DNA of 64,000 bases, taken from the NCBI GenBank assembly GCA_964344135.1, contig CAYFMF010000003.1:442-64441 (forward strand), read 5' to 3'. Below the pieces are notes generated by a model. The model searched no databases. It saw nothing but the letters and a program-made list of their open reading frames with translations, and was not told the DNA's origin. Position 1 is the first letter of the stretch, and the number at the start of each line of letters is the position of its first letter. The stretch comes from an uncultured Piscirickettsiaceae bacterium. GTDB lineage: Bacteria; Pseudomonadota; Gammaproteobacteria; GCF-002020875. Positions 26,787 through 57,285 of this stretch are shown here, one piece after another. The position numbers were made by a program, and so were the translations under genes.

Positions 26787-28070
26787 TTGGATATTAACAA
26801 CTTTGAAGCCTATTGTGATCAGTTTGATCGCGCTGTCAACGAGCTGGGGATCGAAGAGAATCTGGCCGAACTGCTGAAACACCCTGACCGTGAACTCCTC
26901 GTGGAACTCCCGCTGGTTCGGGATGATGGCTCCCTGATGGTCCTCCACGGCTATCGGGTTCAACACAACAATGCCCGTGGCCCCTTCAAGGGGGGGCTGC
27001 GTTTTCATGAGTGTGTCGATCTGGACGAGGTGCGTGCCCTCTCAGCACTGATGACCTTCAAGACCGCCCTGGTCGATATCCCCTATGGTGGTGGCAAGGG
27101 GGGGATCCAGGTGGACCCCAAGAAGCTCTCCTCACATGAACTGGAGCAGCTGACTCGAACCTTTGTCCGCGCCATCAGTCCGGTGATCGGGGTCCATACC
27201 GACATCCCGGCACCCGATGTAAACACCAATGCCCAGATCATGGCCTGGTTCATGGATGAATACAGTCAGCTTCACGGCTACAGCCCCGGAATTGTCACCG
27301 GAAAGCCGCTCAATCTCGGAGGCTCGAAGGGAAGAAATGCCGCTACCGGATATGGAGTCTCCATCGTGCTGCGTGAGGTTGCCGAGTACCGCAACATGGA
27401 GCTGAAGGGTGCAACAGTTGTAATCCAGGGATTTGGCAATGTGGGGAGCTGGGCTGCCAAATACCTTGATGAATTTGGCTGCAAGATCATTGCAGTCAGT
27501 GACAGCAAGGGGGCCATTATCGATAACAGTGGGCTCGATATTACGGCACTGATTGAATACAAGCAGACACATGGGACCATCCAGGGTTTTGGAAACAGTC
27601 ACTCCATCGATGCCGAAACACTTCTCTATACACCCTGCGACTTTCTGGTCCCGGCGGCACTGGGTGGCGTGATCCACAAAAAGAACGCCAATAATCTGCG
27701 CTGCAAGATCGTGATCGAGGCAGCCAACGGCCCCACCACCCCAACCGCTGACACGATTTTATGGAGCAAGAACATTCCTGTGGTTCCCGACATCCTGACC
27801 AATGCGGGTGGTGTGATCGCCTCCTACTACGAATGGGTCCAGAACCTGCAGCGCCACTACTGGGAGGAGGAAGAGGTCAACAGCAAGATGGAGAAGAAAC
27901 TGACCAGCGCCTTCTGTGAGGTTGCCGCACTCGCCCACTCCAAAAGGGAGCTCTCCTATCGTACTGCCGCCTTTATGCTGGCAATTAAACGGGTAACCGA
28001 TACCACAACGATTCGTGGACGACTCGGCTCTCCCTGCGCCATCACCCCTGATCTGCCCCAAGACACTTAA
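26787..28070 (+). CDS. gdhA: Glu/Leu/Phe/Val dehydrogenase family, most likely glutamate dehydrogenase
   Basis: 427 aa. KGGLRFH...PYGGGKGG catalytic motif and C-terminal Rossmann domain GFGNVGSWAA. Confidence 0.8.
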   Translation: MDINNFEAYCDQFDRAVNELGIEENLAELLKHPDRELLVELPLVRDDGSLMVLHGYRVQHNNARGPFKGGLRFHECVDLDEVRALSALMTFKTALVDIPYGGGKGGIQVDPKKLSSHELEQLTRTFVRAISPVIGVHTDIPAPDVNTNAQIMAWFMDEYSQLHGYSPGIVTGKPLNLGGSKGRNAATGYGVSIVLREVAEYRNMELKGATVVIQGFGNVGSWAAKYLDEFGCKIIAVSDSKGAIIDNSGLDITALIEYKQTHGTIQGFGNSHSIDAETLLYTPCDFLVPAALGGVIHKKNANNLRCKIVIEAANGPTTPTADTILWSKNIPVVPDILTNAGGVIASYYEWVQNLQRHYWEEEEVNSKMEKKLTSAFCEVAALAHSKRELSYRTAAFMLAIKRVTDTTTIRGRLGSPCAITPDLPQDT

Positions 28071-28476
28071 TCCCGGACACCTCCCAGAAATCTGGCCCAT
28101 AATCGATAAAGATCTCCTCTCCGGGACGGATCCTCTTCAGTGCCTCGATCCGTGCCTTTTTCCAACGTGTTGAGACCACAAACTGTGCATTGGGTTTTGC
28201 CGAATGGTTTACATAGCGGGTGTAATTCTCCCCCACAATCAGACAGTCCCGACAGACCCAGAGCAGATAGTGTGAATCAATATAGGGGCTGCGTTCCGAC
28301 TGGGCATCGGTGATGATCTTCCCCAGATAGGGGCCGATGGTATCCCCTCTCTGGAGCGTCACAAGCGAAAAGAGCCCCTCTCCACACCCACTGATTGTGG
28401 ATGGAGCCACCTCAAAGTGGTGCTCCTCAAACTGTCTCGATTGTCCCATTCTCCACCCGATCTCCTCTCGCCCCAA
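28042..28476 (-). CDS. SET-domain protein (putative protein-lysine N-methyltransferase)
   Basis: 144 aa. GCGEGLFS, RYVNHSAKPNAQF and GEEIFIDYG match SET-domain motifs (GxG, NHS/RxxNH, ELxxDY). Convergent 29-bp overlap with the gdh 3' end. Confidence 0.65.
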   Translation of the reverse strand: MGREEIGWRMGQSRQFEEHHFEVAPSTISGCGEGLFSLVTLQRGDTIGPYLGKIITDAQSERSPYIDSHYLLWVCRDCLIVGENYTRYVNHSAKPNAQFVVSTRWKKARIEALKRIRPGEEIFIDYGPDFWEVSGIKCLGADQG

Positions 28477-28589
28477 ACAGCCGACAAGACACTATTCAAG
28501 CGCTCAATTGAATTGTATTTCAGCCAATTTCATGTTAATATAGCAGAAATTGATGCACCATATTTAAACTCCAAACCCAAGAGGTTTTC

Positions 28590-29339
28590 ATGAAAAAACT
28601 GAATCTTGTAATGCGTACAGCTGCTGGCGCCCTGATAGCCAGCAGCATGGCGATGCCGGTCGCTGCAGAAGAGGCTGCCACTGGGCAGGTTGCTGAACAA
28701 CAGGCAGCGGCTGCCACACAGCAGGCTGAGCCACGCAAGCGCCGTCCACAGAGCCGCCCCCCCATGCCCTATGGCCCTGGGATGACACCCCCTTATGGCA
28801 TGATGCCTCCGGGCATGGCTCCCTATGGCCCTGGCCCCTACGGGATGGCACCTCCACAGGGTTTTGGCCCCTATGGCCCTCCCGGCATGAGCCCCTACGG
28901 CCCACCAATGGGCTATGCGCCCCCCGGCTACGGGCCTGGCGGCTACAATGCCCCCGGTTTCAACCCCTCATTCAACCCACCCACCATGGAGCCACCCTGG
29001 GGGAATGACAAGAACTTTGACATGAGCCCGATGAAATTCTGGCCGGTTCCCGGAACAGGAAACCCCTGGCACTACAAGCCATGGGAGCCCGGTGCCCCCT
29101 GGGGTGATTCCGACAAGTTCTCCGATCCACCCGATGAGGCCTTCCACGAGGCGGAGGATTTCCTCGCCGACGCCCCAAGAATGCCTGGTGGCTGGGAGCT
29201 GCCCAACATCTCCATGCCAAGCCCCTTCGAGATCGGAGAGCAGGTTGGAGACCAGAGCTGGCTGCTGCCGGAAAACTTCAAGATGCGTGACCGCAATCGT
29301 CCCAAGCGCTACCGGAAGTACTTCCAGAACGAGCAGTAA
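28590..29339 (+). CDS. Secreted low-complexity Pro/Gly/Tyr/Met-rich repeat protein
   Basis: 249 aa. Signal peptide MKKLNLVMRTAAGALIASSMAMPVAA, then reiterated PYGPG/PPGM units (PYGPGMTPPYGMMPPGMAPYGPGPYGMAPP...). Good RBS, genome-typical GC3. Confidence 0.55.
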   Translation: MKKLNLVMRTAAGALIASSMAMPVAAEEAATGQVAEQQAAAATQQAEPRKRRPQSRPPMPYGPGMTPPYGMMPPGMAPYGPGPYGMAPPQGFGPYGPPGMSPYGPPMGYAPPGYGPGGYNAPGFNPSFNPPTMEPPWGNDKNFDMSPMKFWPVPGTGNPWHYKPWEPGAPWGDSDKFSDPPDEAFHEAEDFLADAPRMPGGWELPNISMPSPFEIGEQVGDQSWLLPENFKMRDRNRPKRYRKYFQNEQ

Positions 29340-29350
29340 CAACGCTACCG

Positions 29351-29521
29351 ATGGGAGGCTGGGGCTGCCCGCATGATGCCAACGGCATCTGCCTGAAGGT
29401 ACCGAAGACCCGCTGCGATCCGGGGATGAAGGGGTGCGTTCTGGCCGGCCGCTTCCGCTTCAGCAAGGAGCAGAAGAACCGCCCCGGTGGCCCCAAAAAG
29501 CGCAGCTACGAGACAGAGTAG
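29351..29521 (+). CDS. Candidate 56-aa Cys4 mini-protein (not in the ORF track because it is under 60 aa)
   Basis: MGGWGCPHDANGICLKVPKTRCDPGMKGCVLAGRFRFSKEQKNRPGGPKKRSYETE. Lies 12 nt after the upstream stop and immediately before a strong intrinsic terminator. Four Cys and a basic tail. Confidence 0.3.
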   Translation: MGGWGCPHDANGICLKVPKTRCDPGMKGCVLAGRFRFSKEQKNRPGGPKKRSYETE

Positions 29522-29545
29522 CCGCTCTCGACCTGCCCATAGAGA

Positions 29546-29575
29546 AGAGCCCTCAACTGAGGGCTCTTTTTTTTG
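29546..29575 (+). terminator. Rho-independent terminator
   Basis: agagccctc-aact-gagggctct followed by TTTTTTTT. Confidence 0.7.
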
Positions 29576-29763
29576 TTCAGATCAGGTGTTCCGGTGGGCC
29601 CGCATTGACGGTGCATCCGGATGATTTATGTCAAATACATTTATGCAAACCGGCAGGAAGATCACTATTCGAGGACAAACACTCTTGTTGAGAAGGCAGT
29701 GGTTAGATGCTACGGTTAACAACAAGATACAGCACGGCACCCCATTGGGAGGGGGGAACAACA

Positions 29764-30354
29764 ATGAACATACTAATCGCTGACGATCACTACCTCTATC
29801 TGCAGGGGCTGCGCCTGCTACTCAATGGGCAGCACAAGAAGCTGCGCTACCATGAGGCCAGGGATCTCGCCTCTGTGCTGGATCAGCTGGGCCACCACCC
29901 CATTGAGCTGCTGCTGCTCGATCTGCGGATGCCCGACATGGAGGGGTTTGACGGGGTCTACCAGATCCGTGAGCGCTACCCTGAGCTGCCGATTGTGATC
30001 ATTACCAGCTCAGAGAGCCGCACCGATGTCCAGGCTGCAATCAATGCCGGGGTTCAGGGGTATATCCTCAAGTCACTGGATCACAAGGCGATGACCGATG
30101 CGCTCAATGAGGTGGTTGCCGGCAACCCGTTCTTCCCCGACCTCAGTCAGCCACTCTCTGGCCCACTGGAGAATCTGACCAATCGGCAGCTGGAGATCCT
30201 GCACCTGATCAATGACGGGATGGGGAATCGTGAGATTGGCAAGCGGCTGGGGATTACCGAAGGGACCGTGGGGCAGCATGTTCACGCCCTGCTCAGCGCA
30301 CTGAAGGTAAAAAACCGTTCCGAGGCGGCGCGCATCCTTCGTGAGTATGAGTAG
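29764..30354 (+). CDS. NarL/LuxR-family response regulator (REC domain plus LuxR helix-turn-helix)
   Basis: MNILIADDHYLYLQGL...LLLDLRMPDMEGF receiver domain. C-terminal NRQLEILHLINDGMGNREIGKRLGITEGTV LuxR helix-turn-helix motif. Confidence 0.85.
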   Translation: MNILIADDHYLYLQGLRLLLNGQHKKLRYHEARDLASVLDQLGHHPIELLLLDLRMPDMEGFDGVYQIRERYPELPIVIITSSESRTDVQAAINAGVQGYILKSLDHKAMTDALNEVVAGNPFFPDLSQPLSGPLENLTNRQLEILHLINDGMGNREIGKRLGITEGTVGQHVHALLSALKVKNRSEAARILREYE

Positions 30355-30982
30355 CACCCACCCGCACCACGCACTGGGGCAGTTTCTCTCCACAGCAATT
30401 CACGACATCAAGCAGCCGCTCAATGTGCTACAGATGTATCTGGGGATCCTGCAGGAGCAGGCCGGCCTCCCAAAGGGGGACGAATTGACCCAGATCGCAA
30501 ATGGCTCCCTGAAATCACTACAGTCAATGCTCAACCTGCTCAGCAACTGGGCGCGTGCTGATGAAGGGGGACTCAGGATCCAGCCAGAGTGGGTAACGCC
30601 ATCAACATGGTCTCAACATCTCGAGAAGCAGGAGTGGCTCTCCCACCCCCTCCCGGCAGTGGATCTCTCTGCTGAGGAGACTCATCGGTCGATCGATCTT
30701 GCCCTGCTCACCCAGACCCTGCGCGACATCCTGACCCTGCTCCCCAGGGGGACAGCCATCACCGCAACCCCCACCCCATGGAGCCTTGAACTCCAGCTCA
30801 CCCCGCCACTACAGCGTGGCAGTGATGGTGAGCTTCTGTTTAGCGATGCCCTGCATCAACTGGCAGTGGATGGCGGAGGCGCCGTCCTGAAGGCGCTCGG
30901 CTTTCAGCAGCGGCTGGTAGAGCGTGATGGGGCGGTTGTGATTGCCATTCAGGGGGCGGAGAGTATGGTTGCTGCGCCATGA
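30341..30982 (+). CDS. HisKA (DHp) domain protein lacking recognisable ATPase boxes
   Basis: 213 aa. H-box AIHDIKQPLNVLQMYLGIL, but no N/G1/G2 motifs. Overlaps the regulator gene by 14 bp and the downstream kinase gene by 4 bp. Confidence 0.5.
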   Translation: MSMSSTHPHHALGQFLSTAIHDIKQPLNVLQMYLGILQEQAGLPKGDELTQIANGSLKSLQSMLNLLSNWARADEGGLRIQPEWVTPSTWSQHLEKQEWLSHPLPAVDLSAEETHRSIDLALLTQTLRDILTLLPRGTAITATPTPWSLELQLTPPLQRGSDGELLFSDALHQLAVDGGGAVLKALGFQQRLVERDGAVVIAIQGAESMVAAP

Positions 30983-33261
30983 TCGAGCTGACCAGAGCGT
31001 GGTTGTTCCGAGTTGCCACCCTGTTACTGCTCGCCTTTGGAGCCGGGGCCACCCATGCCGAGGAGGAGCTGGTTCCGGTCAGGCTGCAGCTGAACTGGTT
31101 CCACCAGTTTGAGTTTGCCGGCTTCTATGCGGCGCTGGAGCAGGGCTACTACCGTGATGCGGGGCTGGATGTAACGATCATCCCCGCCACCTTCACGACA
31201 GTTGCCGCCGATGAGCTGACCAGTGGAAATGCCGACTATGCGGTGGGCTACGCGGGCACCATGCTGAAGAAGGCCGCCGGGCAGCCCATTGTCGCCCTCA
31301 AGTCCATCCTTCAGTACTCCCCCTACGCCCTGATGGTACGTGCCGACTCCGCAATCCAGCAACCCGCGGATCTGCGACACAAGCGAATCATGATGCCCCC
31401 CAACCCCAACGCCTCGGAACTGTTTGCGATGCTGCAGGAACATGGTATTAAGCCAAACCAGATTCTGCGCATGGACCACAGCCACAAGCTTGAGGATCTC
31501 ATCTCAGGCAAGGCGGATGCCATCAGCATCTACACCACCAACGAGCCCTTCCGCCTCAGAGAGATGGGGTTTGAGCCACGCATCTTTGACCCCCGGGACA
31601 GCGGAGTGGACTTTTATGGTGACATTCTGATCACAACCGAACAGAAGATCCAGGAGCGCCCAGAGGAGGTACAGCGCTTTGCCGAGGCGACCATGATGGG
31701 ATGGGAGTATGCATCCACCCACCCCACAGAGCTGATCCAGACCATTGTTGAGCACTACAACGGAAAAGAACAGGGAGGGCTGGAAAAAAGTTTTGATGCA
31801 CTCCAGTTTGAGGCGACCGAGATTATCAAAAGGGTCTCTCCCATTCTGATCGATATCGGCCATATGAGTCGCAAACGGTGGCAGAGGTCGCTGTTGACCT
31901 ATCTGGATCAGGGGATGGTGAATCAGCGGTACCGGGACCCCGCTGAACAGGAGCGGTTACTGGATGAGTTTCTCTACACCCCCCCGATCGCAATCACCCT
32001 GCCCCATCTGCTCACCCACTATCGCACCGAGGCCACCATTGTATCCGTGATACTTGTCATCATCAGCGGGCTCATCCTCCTCTACCTTATTCAGTTGAGG
32101 AGGACGGTGGAGGCAACCCTCAACAAGGAGGAGTTCATGGCGAGAATGAGCCATGAGATTCGAACCCCGATGAATGGCATCATGGGGGTGCTGGAGTTGC
32201 TGCGGCTGACCCCGCTCAACCGGGAACAGCAGGATCACCTCAATACCATGCAGAGCTCGGGGACAAGGCTGTTGACCATCATCAACGGGATTCTCGACCT
32301 CTCCAAGATTGAGGCGGGAAAGATCAACCTTGAATCAACCCCATTTGACCTCTTCCGGGTTCTGCAGGAGATTGACGACCTGATCTCCCCACTGGCTCAC
32401 AACAAGGGGGTCAGACTCACACTGGCCAATGACCCCCAACTGCCACAGTGGGTGAAGGGAGACCCGACCCGCCTGCAGCAGATTCTGCTCAATCTGACCG
32501 GCAACGGAATCAAGTTTACCTCCCATGGTGGAGTGACTCTACACACTACACTGGTTGAGAGCAGTCAGGGGCAGGCCCTCATTGAGTTCACTGTCGAGGA
32601 TAGCGGAATCGGCATCAGCGATGAGGCGCAACACCATATCTTTGAGCAGTTCACCCAGGCCAGCGCTGAGACGACCCGTCACCACGGTGGGACTGGACTG
32701 GGGCTGACCATCTCCCAGCAGCTGGTTCAGAAGATGGGCAGCACCATCGTGCTCTCCAGTACTCCGGGAGAGGGAAGCCGCTTCAGCTTCAGGCTCGATC
32801 TGGAGATCGCCACCCCACCGCAGGGGCCGGAGGAGAGTCGGTCCGCAAGAACTGCCCTGGATCCAGCACTGCTCCCCTGCGCTGTACTGCTGGTTGAGGA
32901 CAATGAGACCAACCGGATTGTGGCCCAGAAACTGCTGGAACACATTGGCTGCGAGGTGGAGAATGCAGAGAATGGGGAGGTTGCCCTCAACCGGGTCGTC
33001 GGGCGCAACACCCCCTACGATCTGATCCTGATGGATCTGAACATGCCACTGATGGATGGGGTGGAGGCAGCCCGCCGTATCCGGGGGGGCGGAATCGAAA
33101 CCCCCATTGTTGCACTGACCGCAGAGATCCAGTCCGATGGCAGGCGCTGCCATGAGGCGGGGATTGATGACCTGCTCTACAAGCCATTCTCCATGAGTGA
33201 TCTCGTTGAGAAGATCAACCAGTGGGTCGGAGCTGAGAGCAAGCCCTCACAGAAACAATAA
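30979..33261 (+). CDS. Hybrid sensor histidine kinase/response regulator with a periplasmic SBP-like (NMT1/SsuA-TauA-type) sensor domain
   Basis: 760 aa. Signal/TM, SBP-like domain (LQLNWFHQFEFAGFY...), TM, H-box SHEIRTPMNGI, N-box LNLTGNGIKFT, G1 DSGIGI, G2 GGTGLGLTIS, C-terminal REC domain (LLVEDNETN...DLILMDLNMP). Confidence 0.85.
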   Translation: MIELTRAWLFRVATLLLLAFGAGATHAEEELVPVRLQLNWFHQFEFAGFYAALEQGYYRDAGLDVTIIPATFTTVAADELTSGNADYAVGYAGTMLKKAAGQPIVALKSILQYSPYALMVRADSAIQQPADLRHKRIMMPPNPNASELFAMLQEHGIKPNQILRMDHSHKLEDLISGKADAISIYTTNEPFRLREMGFEPRIFDPRDSGVDFYGDILITTEQKIQERPEEVQRFAEATMMGWEYASTHPTELIQTIVEHYNGKEQGGLEKSFDALQFEATEIIKRVSPILIDIGHMSRKRWQRSLLTYLDQGMVNQRYRDPAEQERLLDEFLYTPPIAITLPHLLTHYRTEATIVSVILVIISGLILLYLIQLRRTVEATLNKEEFMARMSHEIRTPMNGIMGVLELLRLTPLNREQQDHLNTMQSSGTRLLTIINGILDLSKIEAGKINLESTPFDLFRVLQEIDDLISPLAHNKGVRLTLANDPQLPQWVKGDPTRLQQILLNLTGNGIKFTSHGGVTLHTTLVESSQGQALIEFTVEDSGIGISDEAQHHIFEQFTQASAETTRHHGGTGLGLTISQQLVQKMGSTIVLSSTPGEGSRFSFRLDLEIATPPQGPEESRSARTALDPALLPCAVLLVEDNETNRIVAQKLLEHIGCEVENAENGEVALNRVVGRNTPYDLILMDLNMPLMDGVEAARRIRGGGIETPIVALTAEIQSDGRRCHEAGIDDLLYKPFSMSDLVEKINQWVGAESKPSQKQ

Positions 33262-33297
33262 ACCCCTCGAGAGAGGGGCCTATCAGGTATGGCGCGG

Positions 33298-33849
33298 TTA
33301 TCTCCAGTAGGGAGGCGGTGCCATCATTGGCGGCATGGCCGGTGCAAATGGCGGCTGTCCACCACCCATCCCCATAGGGGCAGGTCCATAGGGGTAGGGA
33401 GCCGGACCATAACCATAAGGGGCCGGTGGAGCTCCATAGTATTGTGGAGCATAGTAGTTATCCCCGTAGTAGCGGTTCTCTCCACGACTGCGGCCACGTC
33501 CCTTGTACTTCTTCTCTCCGCTTCCCCTGCCCTCGCCATGAGCCTCGCCCTTGAGCTTGGTGTCGAGATTGAGATCCCACTCCACATCGGTATTGAGGTC
33601 GCTCATTGCATCTCCCATCCCCATGCTGTCCATCATCGAATCGACGGCACCCCAGCCGTGCTCCCCACCAAACGGGCCACGCTTATCATTACTACCCCAG
33701 CCAAAGGGGGCCATGGGGTGGTCAGAACGGTCTCCCCAGTCACTCCAGCCATCCTGCATATCCCAATCTTTCGGGTTCCAGAAGGCCGAGGCACCGCTTG
33801 AGAGCGCCATTGCTGTTGCAGCCACAACGATTTTTACCATGTATTTCAT
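33298..33849 (-). CDS. Secreted low-complexity Gly/Pro/Tyr/Met/Trp-rich protein
   Basis: 183 aa. Signal peptide MKYMVKIVVAATAMALSSGASA; WGDRSDHPMAPFGWG, MMDSMGMGDAM, YYGDNYYAPQYYGAPPAPYGYGPAPYPYGPAPMGMGGG. Compositional paralogue of the 28590..29339 protein. Confidence 0.5.
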   Translation of the reverse strand: MKYMVKIVVAATAMALSSGASAFWNPKDWDMQDGWSDWGDRSDHPMAPFGWGSNDKRGPFGGEHGWGAVDSMMDSMGMGDAMSDLNTDVEWDLNLDTKLKGEAHGEGRGSGEKKYKGRGRSRGENRYYGDNYYAPQYYGAPPAPYGYGPAPYPYGPAPMGMGGGQPPFAPAMPPMMAPPPYWR

Positions 33850-33940
33850 AATTCAGACTCAAACCAGGGTTGGATTAATCAACCGTTTCAGTAAATGCTT
33901 TAATTGTACCCTCTTTTACCCCTTTAATCAAGCAATAATG

Positions 33941-34008
33941 GGGGTCAGGTCTTTCATTTTGCATTGGTGGCAAGGTGGCCCACCAATGTAAAATGAAAGA
34001 CCTGACCC
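33941..34008 (+). repeat. Near-perfect 30-bp inverted repeat (long hairpin) with an 8-nt loop
   Basis: ggggtcaggtctttcattttgcattggtgg-caaggtgg-ccaccaatgtaaaatgaaagacctgacccc. The single mismatch is a G-U wobble only on the + strand transcript. Confidence 0.7.
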
Positions 34009-34020
34009 CCCCCATAACAG

Positions 34021-34725
34021 TTATATCGGCAGCAGCACCATGCTGGCAAGGGAGTGTACCACCCCCGTCAGCTGACGGTTGGTCTGGTCAGCAATCAGGA
34101 TCGCAATCAGGTCCTGGTTTGCGGCCGCCCGGCTGATCTGGTTACTGACCTGCTGGCCGTTCTGCAGCAGCAGGGGTCTCCTTCCCTCCACCCCTGCCTG
34201 CTCAACCATCCTCAATGCGGTCTCGAAATTTCGGGCGGTATTGTAGATCTTCTGCGGGTCGAGCTGATCGAGCATATAGAGCTCAGTGGTGCCGTTATAG
34301 GAGCGCATGGTCATTGAGACCAGTGCTGCGGTAAAGAGCAGCACCCGATCCCCCTGGTAGCTCTCATCAAAGGCGAGATGGAGCAGGTTGTTGCCCCGTG
34401 CGCGCCCAAACTCCGGGAAGTTCCAGCGAATCCGTTGGCCGAAAACCCGCTTCACATTGGCCTCTATGGATGGGTATTGGGCCCGCTCCAGCTGCTGCGG
34501 ATTGGCGGCGTAGAGCTCTGCCATCATCATCCGCAGTGACCTCAACACCTCACGCTGCCCCAGCTCGGCGGCACGGCTGAGGTCCGATTTTGCCAGCATG
34601 CGGACGTCGTAACTGCCGGCATCGGAGTGGATCTTCTTGTAGCGCTCAGGGTTGGTGACACAGCCACTCCCCATCAACAGGGTGGCAGCAAGGCAGAGGA
34701 GGACAGACAACCGCGAGCAACTCAT
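34021..34725 (-). CDS. Hypothetical secreted protein or lipoprotein
   Basis: 234 aa. Leader MSCSRLSVLLCLAATLLMGSGC (Cys after the leader suggests a lipobox). No recognisable catalytic motif. Confidence 0.45.
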   Translation of the reverse strand: MSCSRLSVLLCLAATLLMGSGCVTNPERYKKIHSDAGSYDVRMLAKSDLSRAAELGQREVLRSLRMMMAELYAANPQQLERAQYPSIEANVKRVFGQRIRWNFPEFGRARGNNLLHLAFDESYQGDRVLLFTAALVSMTMRSYNGTTELYMLDQLDPQKIYNTARNFETALRMVEQAGVEGRRPLLLQNGQQVSNQISRAAANQDLIAILIADQTNRQLTGVVHSLASMVLLPI

Positions 34726-51513: not shown

Positions 51514-51739
51514 GTCTACTTCTCGATTCAGTGGTTGATGGTTGGAGGCTCCGGAAGTCCACTTCCGCTGAGCCGTGAAAGCGGCCTATTGTAGTACAGC
51601 AGTGGATAAATAACTATCTCCAGGAGCCTGTCGGATTTATGGGTGCCACGGCAAAAAAGCCCTGACGCAGTGACAGATTCATGAGTAGAATTGAGTTCTT
51701 GATCATGGAAGCATATCGAACCGACATGGAGAAGAAGCA

Positions 51740-53692
51740 GTGAGCAGCGAAGAGACCGGAACCACAAAAGTCTATCCCGTCAACAGTGCGTTTGCCGCAC
51801 AGGCCAATGTTACTGCAGAGCAGTACGAGGAGATGTACCAGCACTCCATTACCGACCCCGAGGGGTTCTGGAGCGAACAGGCCACCCGCTACCTCACCTG
51901 GTTCACTCCATGGGAGACCACCCTGGATTGGAGCTACAGCGGTGATGTACACATCAACTGGTTCAGGGGTGGAAAACTGAATGCCTCCTACAACTGTCTC
52001 GATCGCCACCTTGAGGAGCGTGGGGATCAGGTCGCCATCCTCTGGGAGGGGGATGACCCCAACGAGGATCGCAGCATCACCTACCGGGAGCTCCACGCTG
52101 AGGTGAGCCGGTTCGCCAACGTACTGAAGTCTCGTGGGGTCAACAGGGGGGATCGGGTCTCCATCTATATGCCGATGATCCCGGAGGCGGCTGTCGCAAT
52201 GCTCGCCTGCACCCGTATCGGTGCGGTCCACTCCGTGGTCTTTGGCGGCTTCTCCCCCGATGCACTGCGTGACCGTATCCTGGACTCCGACTGTCAGGTG
52301 GTGATCACCGCCGACCAGAGCATTCGCGGAGGCAAGAAGGTTCCCCTGAAGCAGAATGCAGACCAGGCGATCGCCTCCTGCCCCAACGTGCACACCTGCA
52401 TTGTGGTGCAGCGGGGTGGAGAGCCTGTCGACTGGAGCGAGGAGCGAGATCTCTGGTACCACAAGGCAATGGAGAGCGCCTCTGCGGAGTGCCCTCCCGA
52501 AGAGATGGATGCCGAGGATCCGATGTTTATCCTCTACACCTCCGGATCCACCGGAAAGCCGAAGGGGGTACAGCACACCACCGGTGGCTATATGCTCCAC
52601 GCCGCAATCACCCACAAACTCACCTTCGACTACAAGGATGGGGAGATCTACTGGTGTACCGCCGATGTGGGATGGGTCACCGGACACACCTATATTCTCT
52701 ATGGCCCACTCGCCAATGGTGCCACCACCATGATGTTCGAGGGGATCCCCACCTACCCCACCACCTCCCGCTTCTGGGAGGTCTGTGACAAGCACAGTGT
52801 TGCCAGCTTCTACACCGCACCCACCGCAATCCGTGCCCTGATGTCCAGTGGTAACGAACCGGTAGAGAGGACCTCGCGCAAATCCCTGCGCCTGCTGGGA
52901 ACGGTCGGCGAACCGATCAACCCCGAGGCATGGGAGTGGTACTACAATGTTGTCGGTGACGGACGCTGTCCGATTGTAGACACCTGGTGGCAGACCGAGA
53001 CTGGTGGACACCTGATCACCCCACTCCCTGGTGCCCACCCGCTGAAACCGGGCTCTGCCAGCCGCCCCTTCTTCGGAGTACAGCCGGTGCTGCTGGATGA
53101 TGAGGGGAACGAACTGGAGGGGACAACCTCCGGCAATCTGGCGATGAAGTTCCCGTGGCCCGGACAGATGCGTACCCTCTATGGTGATCACGACCGCTTT
53201 ATCGAAACCTACTTTACCCAGTTCCCCGGCTACTACTTCACAGGAGATGGGGCACGCCGCGACGAGGATGGGTACTGGTGGATCACCGGCCGTGTAGACG
53301 ATGTACTCAATGTCTCCGGACACCGTCTGGGAACAGCCGAGATTGAGTCTGCCCTGGTGCTGCATGAGATGGTCGCAGAGGCGGCTGTGGTCGGTTATCC
53401 CCATGAGATCACTGGCCAGGGGATCTACGCCTTCGTCACCCTGATGCAGGGTGAGACAGCAACCGATGCCCTGAAGAGTGACCTCGTAGCACTGGTGCGC
53501 AAGGAGATTGGCCCCATTGCCAGGATCAACATCATCCAGTGGGCGCCCGGCCTGCCCAAAACCCGCTCTGGAAAGATCATGCGCCGCATCCTGCGCAAGA
53601 TTGCCGCCAATGAGCTGGATGACCTGGGTGATACCTCAACCCTGGCCGACCCCAGCGTAGTTGAGGAACTGATTGAGAACCGAAAGTATTGA
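51740..53692 (+). CDS. acs: Acetyl-coenzyme A synthetase
   Basis: 650 aa. AMP-binding motif [11 protein letters not shown], conserved acylation-site Lys near the C-terminus (SGKIMRR). Confidence 0.95.
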
Positions 53693-53757
53693 GGTCGCGT
53701 TACCGAAAGCATTGAGGTCGCGTTACCGAACGCATTGATGTTGCGCCACCGGGAAAA
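53689..53757 (+). repeat. Three imperfect 23-bp tandem direct repeats spanning the acs stop codon
   Basis: ccgaaagtattgaggtcgcgtta / ccgaaagcattgaggtcgcgtta / ccgaacgcattgatgttgcgcca. Confidence 0.7.
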
Positions 53758-53940
53758 CCGGTAATCTCACAACCGGCCAACCGGGGGAAATCGGAACATC
53801 AGGAGCTGCTAACATACTGGTGCAATATGGAAAAATCTTGCACTCTATTATTGGATACGTATGATTGATCTGAATAAACTGCTCTATCCATATGCAGAGA
53901 TCCGACCAGAAGAGTTGGCAACGCATAGCAGGGAGGAAAT

Positions 53941-54612
53941 ATGCTCGTAAAAATTACTGTTCTGTCACTGGCAGCTCTTCTTTCACCCATTGCCGGCGCC
54001 TGGGATGGTCTGGACCGTGGAGGCGAGATTGAGGAGTCAATGACACTCACTCCCGACATTGAGAACGGAAAAAAACTCTATAAAACCTGTGCCTTCTGTC
54101 ACACACCGGATGGGTGGGGCATGGAGCCCGGAATCGGTAAATACCGGGTTCCGGGAACCTATCCACAACTGGCGGGCCAACACCAGTCGGTACTGATCAA
54201 GCAGCTCTACGATATCCGTCAGCTCAATCGGGACAACCCCACCATGTACCCCTTTACACTGGCCCGCTATATTGGAGGTGCCCAGGATGTTGCCGATGTA
54301 ACCGCCTACATCACCACCCTCTCCATCAACCACTTCAATCAGCATGGGGATGGATCTGATCTGGCGCTTGGAAAAGAGCTCTACGAGGAGAACTGCGTCA
54401 AGTGTCACGGGGAGAATGGTGAGGGAGATACTGAAAACTTCTACCCGCGCCTCTCCAACCAGCACTACCCCTATATGCTGAGACAGTTTGTCTGGATCAA
54501 GGATGGAAAGCGCAGAAACGCCAACAGCAAGATGGTCAAACAGATCCAGAGATTTACCTATCGCGACATGAAGGCGGTCATTGACTATGCCTCCAGACTG
54601 GATGCCCAGTAA
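53941..54612 (+). CDS. Periplasmic diheme cytochrome c (c4-like)
   Basis: 223 aa. Signal peptide, two CxxCH motifs (CAFCH, CVKCH) in two cytochrome-c domains with Met ligand regions. Confidence 0.75.
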   Translation: MLVKITVLSLAALLSPIAGAWDGLDRGGEIEESMTLTPDIENGKKLYKTCAFCHTPDGWGMEPGIGKYRVPGTYPQLAGQHQSVLIKQLYDIRQLNRDNPTMYPFTLARYIGGAQDVADVTAYITTLSINHFNQHGDGSDLALGKELYEENCVKCHGENGEGDTENFYPRLSNQHYPYMLRQFVWIKDGKRRNANSKMVKQIQRFTYRDMKAVIDYASRLDAQ

Positions 54613-54673
54613 CCTGCCTGTAGAAGAATAAAACACAACAACAGTCATAGAGCCTCTAGAGGGAGAGACCTAG

Positions 54674-55378
54674 ATGAAAAAACTACTGATTCCAGCCCTG
54701 ATCTTTATTGCCGGCATGGTGGCACTTGGGGGCGTCAATGTCTTCTTTGCCGCTACCAACGAGATGGAGTTCTGTACCTCCTGCCACTCGATGAAGATCA
54801 ACCTCGAGGAGTATCGCCACACCGTCCACTACGAGAATCAGTCCGGTGTTCAGGCCACCTGCTCGGACTGTCATGTACCCAAACAGTTCATCCCCAAGGT
54901 AATGGCCAAGATCATGGCGGCCAAGGATGTATACCACTGGGTCATGGGCACCATTGAGCCTGATGAGTCCCAACTGGTTTCAGCGGACAGCAGTGGCAAC
55001 TGTCCCGACCTCTTTATCCCTGTTGAGGAGGGCTCCAACCTCTGCGTCCCCAATTATGGGGATCCCTATAGCGAGGATGAGATGAGCGAGGAGGCTGAGG
55101 CGCGTCGTGAGGCGGCACTGGAGAAATACAATGCCTACCGCTGGAAGATGGCCAACAGTGTCTGGGACAAGATGAAGGCCACGGATTCACGTGAATGCAG
55201 AAACTGTCACTCCTTCGACAACATGAACCTCGACGAGCAGGACCGCAGTGCACGCAAGAAGCATGGTCGTGCCACCGACAAGGGTCAGACCTGTATCGAC
55301 TGCCACAAGGGGATAGCCCATGCCGAGCCGGATGAACCTGATGATGAAGAGGAAGAGGAAGAGGATGAAGAGGCATAG
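54674..55378 (+). CDS. NapC/NirT-family membrane-anchored tetraheme cytochrome c (quinol dehydrogenase type) with an acidic C-terminal tail
   Basis: 234 aa. N-terminal TM. Four CxxCH motifs (CTSCH, CSDCH, CRNCH, CIDCH). Tail DEPDDEEEEEEDEEA. Confidence 0.8.
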   Translation: MKKLLIPALIFIAGMVALGGVNVFFAATNEMEFCTSCHSMKINLEEYRHTVHYENQSGVQATCSDCHVPKQFIPKVMAKIMAAKDVYHWVMGTIEPDESQLVSADSSGNCPDLFIPVEEGSNLCVPNYGDPYSEDEMSEEAEARREAALEKYNAYRWKMANSVWDKMKATDSRECRNCHSFDNMNLDEQDRSARKKHGRATDKGQTCIDCHKGIAHAEPDEPDDEEEEEEDEEA

Positions 55379-55408
55379 CCCAGCCCACTGGATGCCGGCC
55401 TATCGGAA

Positions 55409-56365
55409 ATGAATCGGAGCAGTATCATGAAAACAATAACCACCATCGTACTATCCCTCCTCTTCTCCAGTGCCTGCCTCGCTGATGCCGCACTGGACCA
55501 GTCACTGCGCAGGGCTGTGATCAATGGGGAGCTTGCTGAGGTTAAACAGCTGATCAGCCAGGGTGCTGATATCAACAGTAGTGGAGAGTTTGGCCACACC
55601 CCACTGATCTATGCGGCCGAGGATGGTCAGATTGAGATTGCCCAGCTGCTGATTGAACATGGTGCCCGTATCGACCGGCAGACCAGGGGAGGATACACCG
55701 CCCTCTCCGCCGCTGCCGATGAAAGCAGCATTGCCCTGGTCTCCCTGCTCCTGAAGGCTGGAGCCGACCCACATATCAAGACCCGTAATGGAATGGATGC
55801 GCTGATGATTGCGGTCCGCAGCGGAGATGCAGATGTGATCTCGATGCTGATGGCCTATAACAGCAACATCAACACCGCAAACCGCCATGGACAGACCCCG
55901 TTGATGATCGCCTCCCAGAGCGGCAATATCGATGTGGTCCATATGATGTTGCTGGCTGATGCCGGCATGAACATCCGTGACAAGAATGGCAGAACCGCCC
56001 TGATGATCGCCGCAGACACCCAGAGCCTGGAGGTGGTAACCGCCCTGCTGAATCGTGGGGCCTTAACCTCGGTGACGGATGATCATGGTGCCACCGCCCT
56101 GCACTATGCAATCAAGCGCAAGGGAAGCGCCATTGCAGAGACCCTTCTCAACCGTGGCGCCAATGTCAATGTGGCAGATAACGACAGCTGGACCCCGTTA
56201 ATGGATGCGGTCAGCCGTGGAAACAGCAAACTGGCAAAACTGCTGATACAGCGAGGTGCCGATGTAGAGGTCCATGATCAGGAAGGCCACAGCCTCCCCC
56301 AGATCGCCGAGATGAACCGCCGCCACCAGCTGGCTGAATATCTTCAGGGGCTTATCAAGCGCTAG
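55409..56365 (+). CDS. Periplasmic ankyrin-repeat protein
   Basis: 318 aa. Signal peptide (start may be the MKTITTIVLSLLFSSACLA methionine at about 55427). About 8 tandem 33-residue ANK repeats (GxTPLxxAA...GADxN). Confidence 0.8.
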   Translation: MNRSSIMKTITTIVLSLLFSSACLADAALDQSLRRAVINGELAEVKQLISQGADINSSGEFGHTPLIYAAEDGQIEIAQLLIEHGARIDRQTRGGYTALSAAADESSIALVSLLLKAGADPHIKTRNGMDALMIAVRSGDADVISMLMAYNSNINTANRHGQTPLMIASQSGNIDVVHMMLLADAGMNIRDKNGRTALMIAADTQSLEVVTALLNRGALTSVTDDHGATALHYAIKRKGSAIAETLLNRGANVNVADNDSWTPLMDAVSRGNSKLAKLLIQRGADVEVHDQEGHSLPQIAEMNRRHQLAEYLQGLIKR

Positions 56366-56600
56366 CCGGTTACGGTAGCACCAACACCAAACCAATGCCG
56401 GATAACCTACAGAGCACTCCACCATGGAGAGAGCTCCTGTAGCTTAACGGCACAGAACCCACTGACGGGATTGGTGGCTCCGAAGCATGCGGGTTACTCG
56501 ATCACGAGCACCGTTCTCCAACAATATTGAGTACTTGATCTAGAGACCTAACTCGAATAAGGTACTGTTTCTGGTTATTCATGTTCAGGGGGAGAGGTAT

Positions 56601-57218
56601 ATGAGAAAGGTACTGCTTGGCACAATATTAACAACCATTCTGGCATCGCCGGTAACCATGGTTACAGCCGCAGAGGAGGCCGCTGCGGAGAAGGCTGCTG
56701 TAGCAGAGGATATCTCTGTCCACGTTCAAGAGAGTCGTGCTCTGGCCAAGAAGCTGTTTGTCAAACTGAAACATGCGCTGGTTACGGGGATGAAGGCGGG
56801 AGGCCCCTCTACGGCAATCACCGCCTGTAACGTACAGGCGCAGCCCATTACCCGTGCAGCATCCAACCGCCGTACCGGGCTCAATATTCGTCGCACCAGT
56901 CTGCGCCTGCGCAATCCAAAGAATGCCCCCGATGCCTGGGAGATTCGGGTTCTGGAACAGTTTGAGGGGCGCTTTGCCGCAGGTGAGGATCCCAGCAAGG
57001 TGGAGTACCACGAGGTGGTGGAACAGAAAGGTGGCGAACGACTCTTCCGTTACATGAAAGCGATCCCGGCCAGCAAGCCCTGCATGGTCTGTCATGGCGA
57101 GCTGATTGCACCGGATGTACTGAAGACCATTCGGGATCTCTATCCCTATGAGCAGGCAACCGGCTTCAAGCCGGGAGATCTTCGTGGTGCCTTCTCGGTC
57201 ACCAGAGAGCTCGATTGA
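56601..57218 (+). CDS. DUF3365/Tll0287-like periplasmic heme-c protein
   Basis: 205 aa. Signal peptide, PAS-like body, single C-terminal CxxCH (CMVCHG), as in Tll0287-family proteins. Confidence 0.55.
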   Translation: MRKVLLGTILTTILASPVTMVTAAEEAAAEKAAVAEDISVHVQESRALAKKLFVKLKHALVTGMKAGGPSTAITACNVQAQPITRAASNRRTGLNIRRTSLRLRNPKNAPDAWEIRVLEQFEGRFAAGEDPSKVEYHEVVEQKGGERLFRYMKAIPASKPCMVCHGELIAPDVLKTIRDLYPYEQATGFKPGDLRGAFSVTRELD

Positions 57219-57285
57219 TGTTGTAGTCCATTCAACAATAAGTTAAGAGCACCATGCCTGTGGAGGCGGGAATGGTGCGCTGTCG

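What the first reader, a model, noticed from the sequence alone, without database searches (positions are those of the whole stretch)
28042..34725. Lineage-specific island: two secreted Pro/Gly/Tyr/Met-rich proteins flanking a periplasmic-ligand-sensing two-component module (candidate sulfur-globule or metal-binding envelope system)
Between conserved gdh and the GST/ABC genes lies a block with no housekeeping function. It contains the SET protein, a secreted PYGP-repeat protein plus a Cys4 mini-ORF under one terminator, a NarL-type regulator, a HisKA-only protein and a hybrid kinase with an SBP-like periplasmic domain (translationally coupled), a second secreted G/P/Y/M/W-rich protein on the opposite strand, a 30-bp-stem hairpin and a lipoprotein. 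Sulfur-globule envelope proteins (SgpA/B/C) of sulfur-storing bacteria are secreted, repetitive, Gly/Tyr-rich structural proteins. The genome context here (soxYZA, fccAB) makes an Sgp-like role plausible. The reiterated M-x-x-M and MGMG stretches alternatively suggest Cu(I)- or metal-binding periplasmic proteins. Either way the arrangement looks like an undescribed regulated envelope-protein system.
Basis: inference. Interest (0 to 1): 0.7.

Follow-up and report, generated by a model that had tools for sequence, protein, structure and literature searches.

The report
Divergent sulfur-globule protein gene plus unrelated neighbours
One of the two odd secreted proteins is a distant, unannotated relative of the proteins that coat sulfur globules in sulfur-oxidising bacteria; the other secreted protein, its small cysteine partner and the signalling genes between them are separate units, so this is probably not one system.

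Summary
The genes are all present as described. The block holds SET, a 249-aa secreted PYG-rich protein (PYG249), a coupled 56-aa Cys4 ORF (mini56), a NarL-type regulator, a HisKA-only protein, an NMT1-sensor hybrid kinase, a 183-aa secreted G/P/Y/M/W-rich protein (GYP183), a 31-bp hairpin and a lipoprotein. soxYZA and fccAB lie about 25 kb away.

The Sgp idea holds for GYP183 only. It is a divergent member of the Pfam SGP family. It scores 20.7 bits, below the 26.7 cutoff, but accepted Beggiatoaceae Sgp proteins score 21-28. A profile-profile match to proteins that pass the SGP cutoff gives 98.9% probability. The similarity survives removal of the signal peptide and shuffling controls. The gene stands alone with its own conserved promoter and terminator.

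PYG249 is related neither to SGP nor to GYP183. Its function is unknown.

The two-component trio sits at this position in one other species and is missing from two. Its sensor domain most resembles thiamine-pyrimidine binding proteins. The promoters of both secreted-protein genes are conserved whether or not the trio is present.

The copper reading has little support.

Verdict: a mosaic containing one new divergent Sgp homologue and an orphan operon. Interest is moderate to low.

The parts
28042..28476 (-). SET-domain protein. It is divergent from PYG249 and overlaps the gdh 3' end by 29 nt.
   Evidence: Pfam SET 58.9 bits. It lies next to the PYG249 homologue in 12 of the 14 genome loci; in L018 it is about 4.4 kb upstream and in L020 it is absent.
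28494..28513 (.). Palindromic candidate operator, ATTCAAGCGCTCAATTGAAT, upstream of a conserved extended -10 element of PYG249.
   Evidence: It is a perfect 9+9 inverted repeat in L008 and L032 and is unique in the window. It is conserved in L008, which lacks the two-component trio.
28590..29339 (+). PYG249: signal peptide, a variable P/G/Y/M-rich linker with six PYG units, and a nearly invariant 125-aa W/P/D/E-rich C-terminal region.
   Evidence: 19 homologous clusters and alignment A2. No Pfam, NCBIfam or PDB hit. AlphaFold2 pLDDT 48.
29351..29521 (+). mini56: a 56-aa protein with four invariant Cys (C-x7-C-x7-C-x6-C) and a basic tail, with no signal peptide. It is translationally coupled to PYG249.
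   Evidence: Conserved at 71-92% identity in 12 of 14 genome loci, and also in L032-L034. The stop and start codons overlap in L010, L011 and L014. No family or PDB hit.
29546..29574 (+). Intrinsic terminator that closes the PYG249-mini56 operon.
   Evidence: Stem AGAGCCCTCA/TGAGGGCTCT followed by T7 (read from the sequence).
29764..30354 (+). NarL/LuxR-type response regulator (REC + GerE).
   Evidence: Pfam Response_reg 88 bits and GerE 54 bits. 70% identical in L032.
30347..30982 (+). HisKA-only protein. It keeps the H-box His and has a degenerate C-terminal half. It is a candidate ChpT/Spo0B-like histidine phosphotransferase.
   Evidence: Pfam HisKA 39 bits only. The PDB search matches only the DHp region. 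The H-box is conserved and there are no N/G1/G2 boxes in the alignment with L032. The single-sequence model is poor.
30979..33261 (+). Hybrid histidine kinase: signal/TM segment, periplasmic NMT1/ThiY-like domain, TM segment, HisKA, HATPase, REC. There is no Hpt domain.
   Evidence: Pfam. The sensor domain matches ThiY 3ix1 at E 3.8e-20. 54% identical in L032.
33256..33285 (-). Terminator-like hairpin after GYP183.
   Evidence: 13-pair stem followed by a T-rich tail.
33298..33849 (-). GYP183: a divergent SGP-family (sulfur globule protein) homologue. Order of segments: signal peptide, W/D-rich region, Met/Asp motif, basic G/R/K segment, Y/P/G/M tail.
   Evidence: Pfam SGP 20.7 bits. hhalign to the SGP set gives 98.9%. 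The family is restricted to 7 representatives in 1.84 billion proteins.
33903..33931 (-). Sigma-70-like promoter of GYP183 (TTGATT, 17 nt, TACAAT), followed by a conserved leader.
   Evidence: Found. The hexamers are conserved in L008, L032 and L024, and the leader in L008 and L032.
33940..34010 (.). 31-bp-stem hairpin between the lipoprotein gene and the GYP183 promoter. It is species-specific.
   Evidence: It is present only in same-species contigs and absent from L008 and L032.
34021..34725 (-). Probable lipoprotein of unknown function.
   Evidence: Signal peptide plus a conserved Cys. No family or PDB hit. It is syntenic in L008 and L032 only.

Best explanation
The block is a mosaic of three independent units, not one system.

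(1) GYP183 is a divergent member of the sulfur-globule-protein (SGP, SgpA/B-type) family. It is made with a Sec signal peptide and exported to the periplasm. There it most likely forms part of the protein coat around stored elemental sulfur produced by the Sox (soxYZA) and FccAB enzymes of this marine gammaproteobacterium. It is transcribed alone from a strong, conserved sigma-70 promoter and ends at its own terminator, as the sgp genes of Allochromatium do.

(2) PYG249 and mini56 form a conserved, translationally coupled two-gene operon of unknown function. It has its own palindromic operator and an extended -10 promoter. PYG249 is a secreted, largely non-globular protein. Its composition makes it a candidate second envelope or globule-associated protein, but it has no detectable homology to any Sgp.

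(3) The regulator, the HisKA-only protein and the hybrid kinase form a His-Asp-His-Asp phosphorelay. The HisKA-only protein stands in for the missing Hpt domain. The relay senses a periplasmic small molecule through a ThiY/NMT1-type binding domain. It is present in only some relatives, and nothing ties it to either secreted-protein gene.

Shown: gene structures, homology, synteny and promoter conservation. Inferred: globule localisation, the order of the phosphorelay and the ligand class.
For: GYP183 as an SGP relative:
- The Pfam SGP hit is E 7.6e-4, 20.7 bits.
- An exhaustive profile search finds only 7 representatives. The distant ones, P0033 and P0034, pass the Pfam SGP cutoff at 31.9 and 30.7 bits.
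- hhalign of the GYP183 family against a P0033-type SGP set (one member is named 'sulfur globule family protein') gives probability 98.9%, E 2e-17, over 135 collinear columns.
- With signal peptides removed, the SGP-set HMM scores the family at 22-62 bits, and the window protein at 40.4. The best of 2400 global shuffles is 11.2 and the best of the block-10 shuffles is 33.
- The experimentally supported Beggiatoa leptomitoformis Sgp and two relatives (PMC7356093 supplement) score 27.7, 22.7 and 21.4 on Pfam SGP, the same range as GYP183.

Stand-alone unit: the promoter, leader and terminator are conserved. sgp genes are separate transcription units (PMC10386293).

Sulfur-oxidiser context.

Mosaic:
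- L032 has the whole block. L008 and L015 lack the trio. L010/L024 have GYP183 elsewhere. L034 has other genes after mini56.
- PYG249 is unrelated to SGP and to GYP183.

Phosphorelay:
- The kinase has a REC domain but no Hpt domain, and the gene starts and stops overlap.
- The HisKA-only protein keeps the H-box His and lacks ATP-binding boxes.

Sensor: closest to the ThiY FAMP-binding protein.
Against: - GYP183 is below Pfam's gathering score, and only 2 of 12 family members hit SGP at all.
- A direct HMM comparison with the three Beggiatoaceae Sgp sequences is not significant after bias correction.
- Much of the profile score comes from collinear, compositionally biased segments; block shuffles reach 33 bits. 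Convergence is therefore not fully excluded.
- The family is acidic and Met-rich, unlike other SGP members.
- The window does not show whether soxCD is absent or dsr is present, so sulfur storage by this organism is unproven.
- There are no expression or localisation data.
- The full gene order, including the trio, is conserved in L032, so a functional link between the trio and its neighbours cannot be ruled out.
Confidence: 0.6

Rival explanations
1. One reading: the whole block is one regulated envelope-protein system. The periplasm-sensing two-component module controls both secreted repeat proteins, which together build a sulfur-globule or envelope layer.
For: - The complete gene order, including the trio, is conserved in a second species (L032; RR 70%, kinase 54%, GYP183 65%).
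- The two secreted-protein genes are adjacent or nearly so in four lineages (window, L008, L015, L032).
- In A. vinosum, sgpD lies next to a probable two-component regulator (PMC10386293).
Against: - The trio is absent in L008 and L015, while both target genes and their promoter regions are kept.
- GYP183 is unlinked in L024.
- The two upstream regions share no motif, and the PYG249 palindrome is unique in the window.
- The sensor domain resembles pyrimidine-precursor binders, not sulfur or metal binders.
- PYG249 has no homology to Sgp.
Confidence: 0.15
2. GYP183 only converges on Sgp-like composition and segment order. It is then a generic low-complexity periplasmic or cell-surface structural protein with no role in sulfur storage.
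For: - Block-wise shuffles that keep local composition reach up to 33 bits against the SGP-set HMM.
- The direct comparison with Beggiatoaceae Sgp is not significant.
- The Pfam score is below the cutoff.
- The Met-rich, acidic character is atypical for the family.
Against: - Real family scores have a median of about 48 bits and a maximum of 62, above all 2400 block shuffles for most members.
- Shared motifs appear in the same order: A-F-(W/D)-x-P-x-D-W-D, then GPFGG-x-GWG, then G-D-(A/M)-(M/F)-(S/G)-D, then G-x-G-(R/K)-G, then R-x-YGD-x-YY-x-PY.
- The negative control, PYG249 against the SGP set, gives 1.7%.
- The organism carries sox and fcc genes.
Confidence: 0.15
3. The Met-rich secreted proteins are periplasmic Cu(I)- or metal-binding proteins. 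The two-component module is a metal-stress sensor.
For: - The Met content is raised: 7.5% in GYP183 and 6.3% in PYG249. This is above the 1-4% of other SGP-family proteins.
- There is a conserved DSMMDSMGMGDAMSD stretch.
Against: - There are only 1 and 2 M-x-x-M motifs and 2-3 His per protein.
- A homologous D/M motif exists in SGP proteins.
- There are no cop, cus or pco genes nearby.
- The regulator is NarL-type and the sensor is an SBP-like NMT1 domain, unlike CusS/CopS.
Confidence: 0.07

Closest known systems
Sulfur globule proteins of the SgpA/SgpB type (Pfam SGP, PF17228). Examples: Allochromatium vinosum SgpA/B and Beggiatoa leptomitoformis ALG67575.
   Same: - Sec signal peptide.
- No Cys.
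- Rich in Gly, Pro, Tyr and Trp.
- Same order of segments: W/D-rich N-terminus, GPF-x-G-x-GWG, D/M motif, basic G-R/K segment, Y/P/G tail.
- Monocistronic gene with its own promoter and terminator.
- Found in a sox/fcc sulfur oxidiser.
- Its Pfam SGP score is in the range of accepted Beggiatoaceae Sgp proteins.
   Different: - Below the Pfam gathering score.
- Larger: 17.8 kDa mature, against about 11-13 kDa.
- Acidic and Met-rich.
- Carries an extra invariant motif, NTDVEWDLNLDTKLKG.
- The family is confined to one uncultured marine gammaproteobacterial lineage.
- Association with globules has not been tested.
ChpT (Caulobacter) and Spo0B (Bacillus) histidine phosphotransferases, which are DHp plus pseudo-kinase-domain proteins acting within phosphorelays.
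   Same: - About 210 aa.
- HisKA/DHp domain with a conserved phospho-acceptor His.
- C-terminal alpha/beta half without ATP-binding boxes.
- Encoded between a hybrid kinase that lacks Hpt and a response regulator.
   Different: There is no detectable sequence similarity to ChpT or Spo0B, and the structural model has low confidence. The role is inferred from domain logic only.
ThiY / NMT1-THI5-type periplasmic binding proteins (PDB 3ix1, FAMP-binding protein).
   Same: The kinase's periplasmic domain matches Pfam NMT1 at 170 bits and ThiY at E 3.8e-20.
   Different: Here the domain is fused to a hybrid histidine kinase as a sensor instead of serving an ABC transporter. The ligand is unknown.
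Periplasmic Met-motif copper proteins (CusF, PcoE, CopC) with CusRS/CopRS regulation.
   Same: Secreted, with a raised Met content.
   Different: There are no repeated M-x-x-M or H/M clusters, no family hits, no cop/cus context, and the regulator is of a different class.

Membership tests
SGP (PF17228, SgpA/B-type sulfur globule proteins) | Score on the Pfam SGP model at or above the gathering cutoff (26.7 bits). | tested here: not met
   GYP183 scores 20.7 bits, E 7.6e-4, and only 2 of 12 family members hit. For calibration, B. leptomitoformis Sgp scores 27.7, B. alba 22.7 and Thioflexithrix 21.4.
SGP (PF17228, SgpA/B-type sulfur globule proteins) | Profile-level homology to proteins that pass the SGP cutoff. 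| tested here: met
   hhalign gives 98.9%, E 2e-17, over 135 columns. The reciprocal mature-only HMMs score 20-62 bits, against at most 11 for global shuffles and at most 33 for block shuffles. The PYG249 control gives 1.7%.
SGP (PF17228, SgpA/B-type sulfur globule proteins) | Sec signal peptide directing export to the periplasm. | tested here: met
   MKYMVKIVVAATAMALSSGASA before FWNP, with A-S/Y/A-A before F conserved in all 12 members. This was read by eye; no predictor was run.
SGP (PF17228, SgpA/B-type sulfur globule proteins) | Gly/Tyr/aromatic-rich, Pro-spaced repetitive composition with no Cys. | tested here: met
   G 17.4%, P 13.0%, Y 7.5%, W 5.0%, 0 Cys. Gly and Tyr are lower than in Beggiatoaceae Sgp, and Met is higher.
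SGP (PF17228, SgpA/B-type sulfur globule proteins) | Separate transcription unit with its own promoter and terminator (PMC10386293). | tested here: met
   TTGATT-17-TACAAT at 33931-33903 and a terminator at 33285-33256. The promoter is conserved in three other species.
SGP (PF17228, SgpA/B-type sulfur globule proteins) | Physical presence in the globule envelope; induction by sulfide or thiosulfate. | not testable with these tools
   No proteomic or transcript data were available for this uncultured lineage.
SGP (PF17228, SgpA/B-type sulfur globule proteins) | The host stores sulfur: Sox without SoxCD, plus rDsr or an equivalent. | tested here: inconclusive
   soxYZA and fccAB are in the window. 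The window does not cover soxCD or dsr status.
SGP family, tested for PYG249 | Any sequence or profile similarity to SGP. | tested here: not met
   No Pfam SGP hit in 13 members at E<=1. hhalign gives 1.7%. The SGP-set HMM finds only GYP183 among all window ORFs.
Histidine phosphotransferase of the ChpT/Spo0B type, tested for the HisKA-only protein | DHp domain with a phospho-acceptor His plus a degenerate, non-ATP-binding CA-like domain, working between a hybrid kinase and a response regulator. | tested here: inconclusive
   The HisKA domain and conserved His are present, and there are no N/G1/G2 boxes. The predicted secondary structure is a helical hairpin followed by an alpha/beta part, but pLDDT is 45. 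Phosphotransfer was not tested.
Met-motif Cu(I) proteins with CusRS/CopRS | Repeated M-x-x-M/M-x-M or His-Met clusters, cop/cus neighbours, and an OmpR-type regulator. | tested here: not met
   1-2 M-x-x-M motifs and 2-3 His per protein. The neighbours are GST and an oligopeptide ABC transporter. The regulator is NarL-type.

The most novel reading that the evidence does not exclude
PYG249 with its translationally coupled Cys4 partner mini56, and perhaps the divergently transcribed SET methyltransferase, could be a new, non-SGP class of sulfur-globule or periplasmic envelope protein module. It would be specific to an uncultured pelagic sulfur-oxidising gammaproteobacterial lineage and would work together with the divergent Sgp GYP183. 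In some species the pair would be controlled by a phosphorelay whose SBP-like sensor reads a periplasmic small molecule.
Probability: 0.15. Interest if true: 0.6.

Novelty: new member of a known kind. Interest (0 to 1): 0.35.

Why it matters
If GYP183 really coats sulfur globules, it marks an uncultured marine gammaproteobacterial lineage as a periplasmic sulfur storer. The related contigs have sample names pointing to Saanich Inlet and other marine metagenomes. This bears on how reduced sulfur is buffered in oxygen-deficient waters.

It also shows that the Pfam SGP model misses a whole subfamily, whose members carry no SGP annotation in the protein collections searched here ("hypothetical protein" or no name).

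PYG249 and mini56 are a tightly conserved orphan pair that deserves a functional test.

A phosphorelay with a ThiY-like sensor and a HisKA-only shuttle is a tidy but unsurprising variant of known signalling designs.

Tried and rejected
- Pfam and NCBIfam scans of PYG249, mini56 and the lipoprotein gave no hits.
- PDB sequence searches with mini56, the lipoprotein and the PYG249 profile gave nothing.
- tblastn of mini56 and the PYG249 C-terminal domain against plasmids gave nothing meaningful.
- AlphaFold2 of PYG249 with a 13-sequence alignment gave pLDDT 48 with no fold. AlphaFold2 of the HisKA-only protein as a single sequence gave pLDDT 45. No fold search was run, because it would have been meaningless.
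- A metagenome scan with the kinase's sensor domain found only relatives at 35-41% identity, without the trio, so it said nothing about the regulon.
- Exact cluster look-ups returned no names.
- An Rfam scan gave only spurious miRNA-model hits on the long hairpin.
- Tandem Repeats Finder found no DNA-level repeat under the PYG units.
- A direct HMM comparison of the GYP183 family with the three Beggiatoaceae Sgp sequences was not significant after composition correction.
- A literature search for the sample project and for UBA868 did not identify the lineage.
- I first concluded that the two-component trio was an insertion specific to the window's species. I corrected this when L032 showed the same trio in a second species.

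Full report
**1. What is there**

- SET-domain protein, 28042-28476(-).
- PYG249, 28590-29339(+), a 249-aa protein with a Sec-type signal peptide.
- mini56, 29351-29521(+), a 56-aa ORF with four Cys.
- NarL/LuxR-type response regulator, 29764-30354(+).
- HisKA-only protein, 30347-30982(+).
- Hybrid histidine kinase, 30979-33261(+). Its periplasmic part is an NMT1-type binding domain (170 bits).
- GYP183, 33298-33849(-), a 183-aa secreted protein.
- Probable lipoprotein, 34021-34725(-).

The flanks are nfo and gdh on one side, and GST plus an oligopeptide ABC transporter on the other.

The three signalling genes overlap start-to-stop, by 8 nt and by ATGA. PYG249 and mini56 share one intrinsic terminator at 29546-29574. 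The 31-bp-stem hairpin at 33940-34010 is real, with dG -57 kcal/mol and z -8.9. fccAB and soxYZA are in the window about 25 kb away.

Two details of the observation do not hold. M-x-x-M is rare, with 1 and 2 copies. The region is not compositionally distinct from its surroundings.

**2. Both low-complexity ORFs are genes, in a very narrow lineage**

GYP183 has 11 homologous clusters and PYG249 has 19. All come from uncultured marine gammaproteobacterial MAGs and metagenomes. The MAG titles read Piscirickettsiaceae, Methylophaga, Thiotrichales or Gammaproteobacteria, and some sample names point to Saanich Inlet.

Each protein combines a variable low-complexity stretch with a strongly conserved part:
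- In PYG249 this is a nearly invariant 125-aa C-terminal region.
- In GYP183 it is the N-terminal 80 residues.

An exhaustive profile search of 1.84 billion representatives found only seven for the GYP183 family.

**3. GYP183 is a divergent sulfur-globule-protein homologue**

GYP183 hits Pfam SGP at 20.7 bits, below the 26.7 cutoff. Only 2 of 12 family members hit the model at all.

The weakest significant hits of the family profile, P0033 and P0034, pass the SGP cutoff at 31.9 and 30.7 bits. Relatives of P0033 carry PF17228, and one of them is named 'sulfur globule family protein'.

A profile-profile comparison of the GYP183 family with this SGP set gives 98.9% probability, E 2e-17, over 135 collinear columns. 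The aligned parts, in order, are the signal peptide, the W/D-rich start, a D/M motif, a basic G-R/K segment and a Y/P tail.

The similarity is more than composition:
- With signal peptides removed, the SGP-set HMM scores the family at 22-62 bits, and the window protein at 40.4.
- Global shuffles reach at most 11.2 bits.
- Shuffles within 10-residue blocks reach at most 33 bits.

The block-shuffle result shows that part of the signal comes from the order of biased segments, so I keep some doubt.

Three Beggiatoaceae Sgp sequences serve as calibration. They come from the supplement of PMC7356093, and in one of them transposon disruption abolishes globule formation. They score 27.7, 22.7 and 21.4 bits on Pfam SGP, so GYP183 is no worse than accepted members. 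A direct HMM comparison with those three is not significant after bias correction, although the GPF-x-G-x-GWG motif aligns.

GYP183 is a stand-alone transcription unit. It has a TTGATT-17-TACAAT promoter and its own terminator. The promoter hexamers are conserved in L008, L032 and L024. The leader is conserved in L008 and L032. This matches what is reported for the sgp genes of A. vinosum (PMC10386293).

The family differs from other SGP proteins. It is acidic, Met-rich (5-10% M against 1-4%) and somewhat larger.

**4. PYG249 and mini56**

- PYG249 is related neither to SGP (hhalign 1.7%) nor to GYP183.
- It has no family or PDB match.
- It is predicted to be non-globular even in its invariant part, though the alignment is shallow.
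- mini56 follows it in 12 of 14 genome loci. Its four Cys are invariant, and its start overlaps the PYG249 stop in three loci, so the two are translationally coupled.
- A palindrome lies upstream of a conserved extended -10 element between SET and PYG249. It is a perfect 9+9 inverted repeat in L008 and L032, is recognisable in L015, and is unique in the window.

The function is unknown. Sec export, an Sgp-like P/Y/G tail and frequent proximity to GYP183 make a globule or envelope role possible, but unproven.

**5. The two-component trio**

In L032 (PYG249 73% identical) the whole order is kept: SET, PYG249, mini56, regulator, HisKA-only, NMT1 kinase, GYP183, lipoprotein, GST.

Elsewhere the arrangement varies:
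- In L008 and L015 the PYG249-mini56 operon directly faces GYP183 and the trio is absent. L015 has unrelated hybrid kinases beyond GYP183 instead.
- In L024 the GYP183 homologue sits next to an FKBP-rhodanese gene. L010, a contig of the same length (60,766 nt), carries SET-PYG249-mini56 with no GYP183 within 10 kb, so if the two are the same contig the genes lie roughly 25 kb apart.
- In L034 mini56 is followed by ferritin-like and Nuo-like genes.

The promoter regions of both secreted-protein genes are conserved whether or not the trio is present, and share no motif. The sensor domain is closest to ThiY, a thiamine-pyrimidine binding protein (E 3.8e-20).

The kinase has a REC domain but no Hpt domain. 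The HisKA-only protein keeps the H-box His and lacks ATP-binding boxes. I therefore infer a His-Asp-His-Asp relay with the HisKA-only protein acting as a ChpT/Spo0B-like shuttle. The structural model was too poor to test this.

**6. Verdict**

The block is best read as a mosaic of three units:
- a new divergent Sgp homologue;
- an orphan secreted-protein and Cys4 operon;
- a phosphorelay of variable presence.

The copper alternative is weak. The novelty is that of a new, sub-threshold member of a known family, plus an uncharacterised conserved pair. Interest is moderate to low.

Noticed in passing
window 28494-28513: Palindrome ATTCAAGCGCTCAATTGAAT between SET and PYG249. It is a perfect ATTCAATTG-N2-CAATTGAAT in L008 and L032 and is unique in the window. 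It is a likely operator for an unidentified regulator and sits upstream of a conserved extended -10 element (TGnTAnnAT).
   Followed up: partly
window 33940-34010: A 31-bp perfect-stem hairpin (dG -57 kcal/mol) with no T tail. It occurs only in same-species contigs (L001, L002, L004) and is absent at the same site in L008 and L032. It may be a recent insertion or a REP/MITE-like element, not a conserved part of the locus.
   Followed up: partly
GYP183 family (A1) and PYG249: The GYP183 subfamily has 5-10% Met, against 1-4% in other SGP-family proteins. Some members carry long M/Q/P tails, for example P0003. PYG249 has 6.3% Met. The reason for the Met enrichment is unexplained.
   Followed up: partly
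P0032 (315 aa): An Omp28-like N-terminal half is fused to a C-terminal half whose last ~105 residues are identical to P0011, a member of the GYP183 family. This is probably a chimeric assembly or gene call.
   Followed up: no
window 30979-32118 (kinase sensor domain): The periplasmic domain is closest in the PDB to the ThiY FAMP-binding protein (3ix1) and to THI5/THI13. This hints at a pyrimidine or vitamin-precursor-like ligand for a hybrid kinase.
   Followed up: partly
window 51614-59283: A cluster next to fccAB encodes a dihaem cytochrome c, a NapC/NirT tetrahaem protein, a 318-aa ankyrin-repeat protein, a Tll0287-like protein and a multihaem-cytochrome b561 fusion. A 596-aa ORF at 51614-53404(-) has no Pfam hit.
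   Followed up: no
window 28042-28070: The 3' ends of the convergent gdh and SET genes overlap by 29 nt.
   Followed up: no
L032 2548-4136, 12839-13357; L033 8643-9796: Relative to the window, the L032 species carries a HipA/HTH toxin-antitoxin pair between queA and nfo, and an Xre-like gene between GYP183 and the lipoprotein gene. A sister contig, L033, has an IS element right after the PYG249-mini56 operon. The neighbourhood appears to be an insertion hot spot.
   Followed up: no
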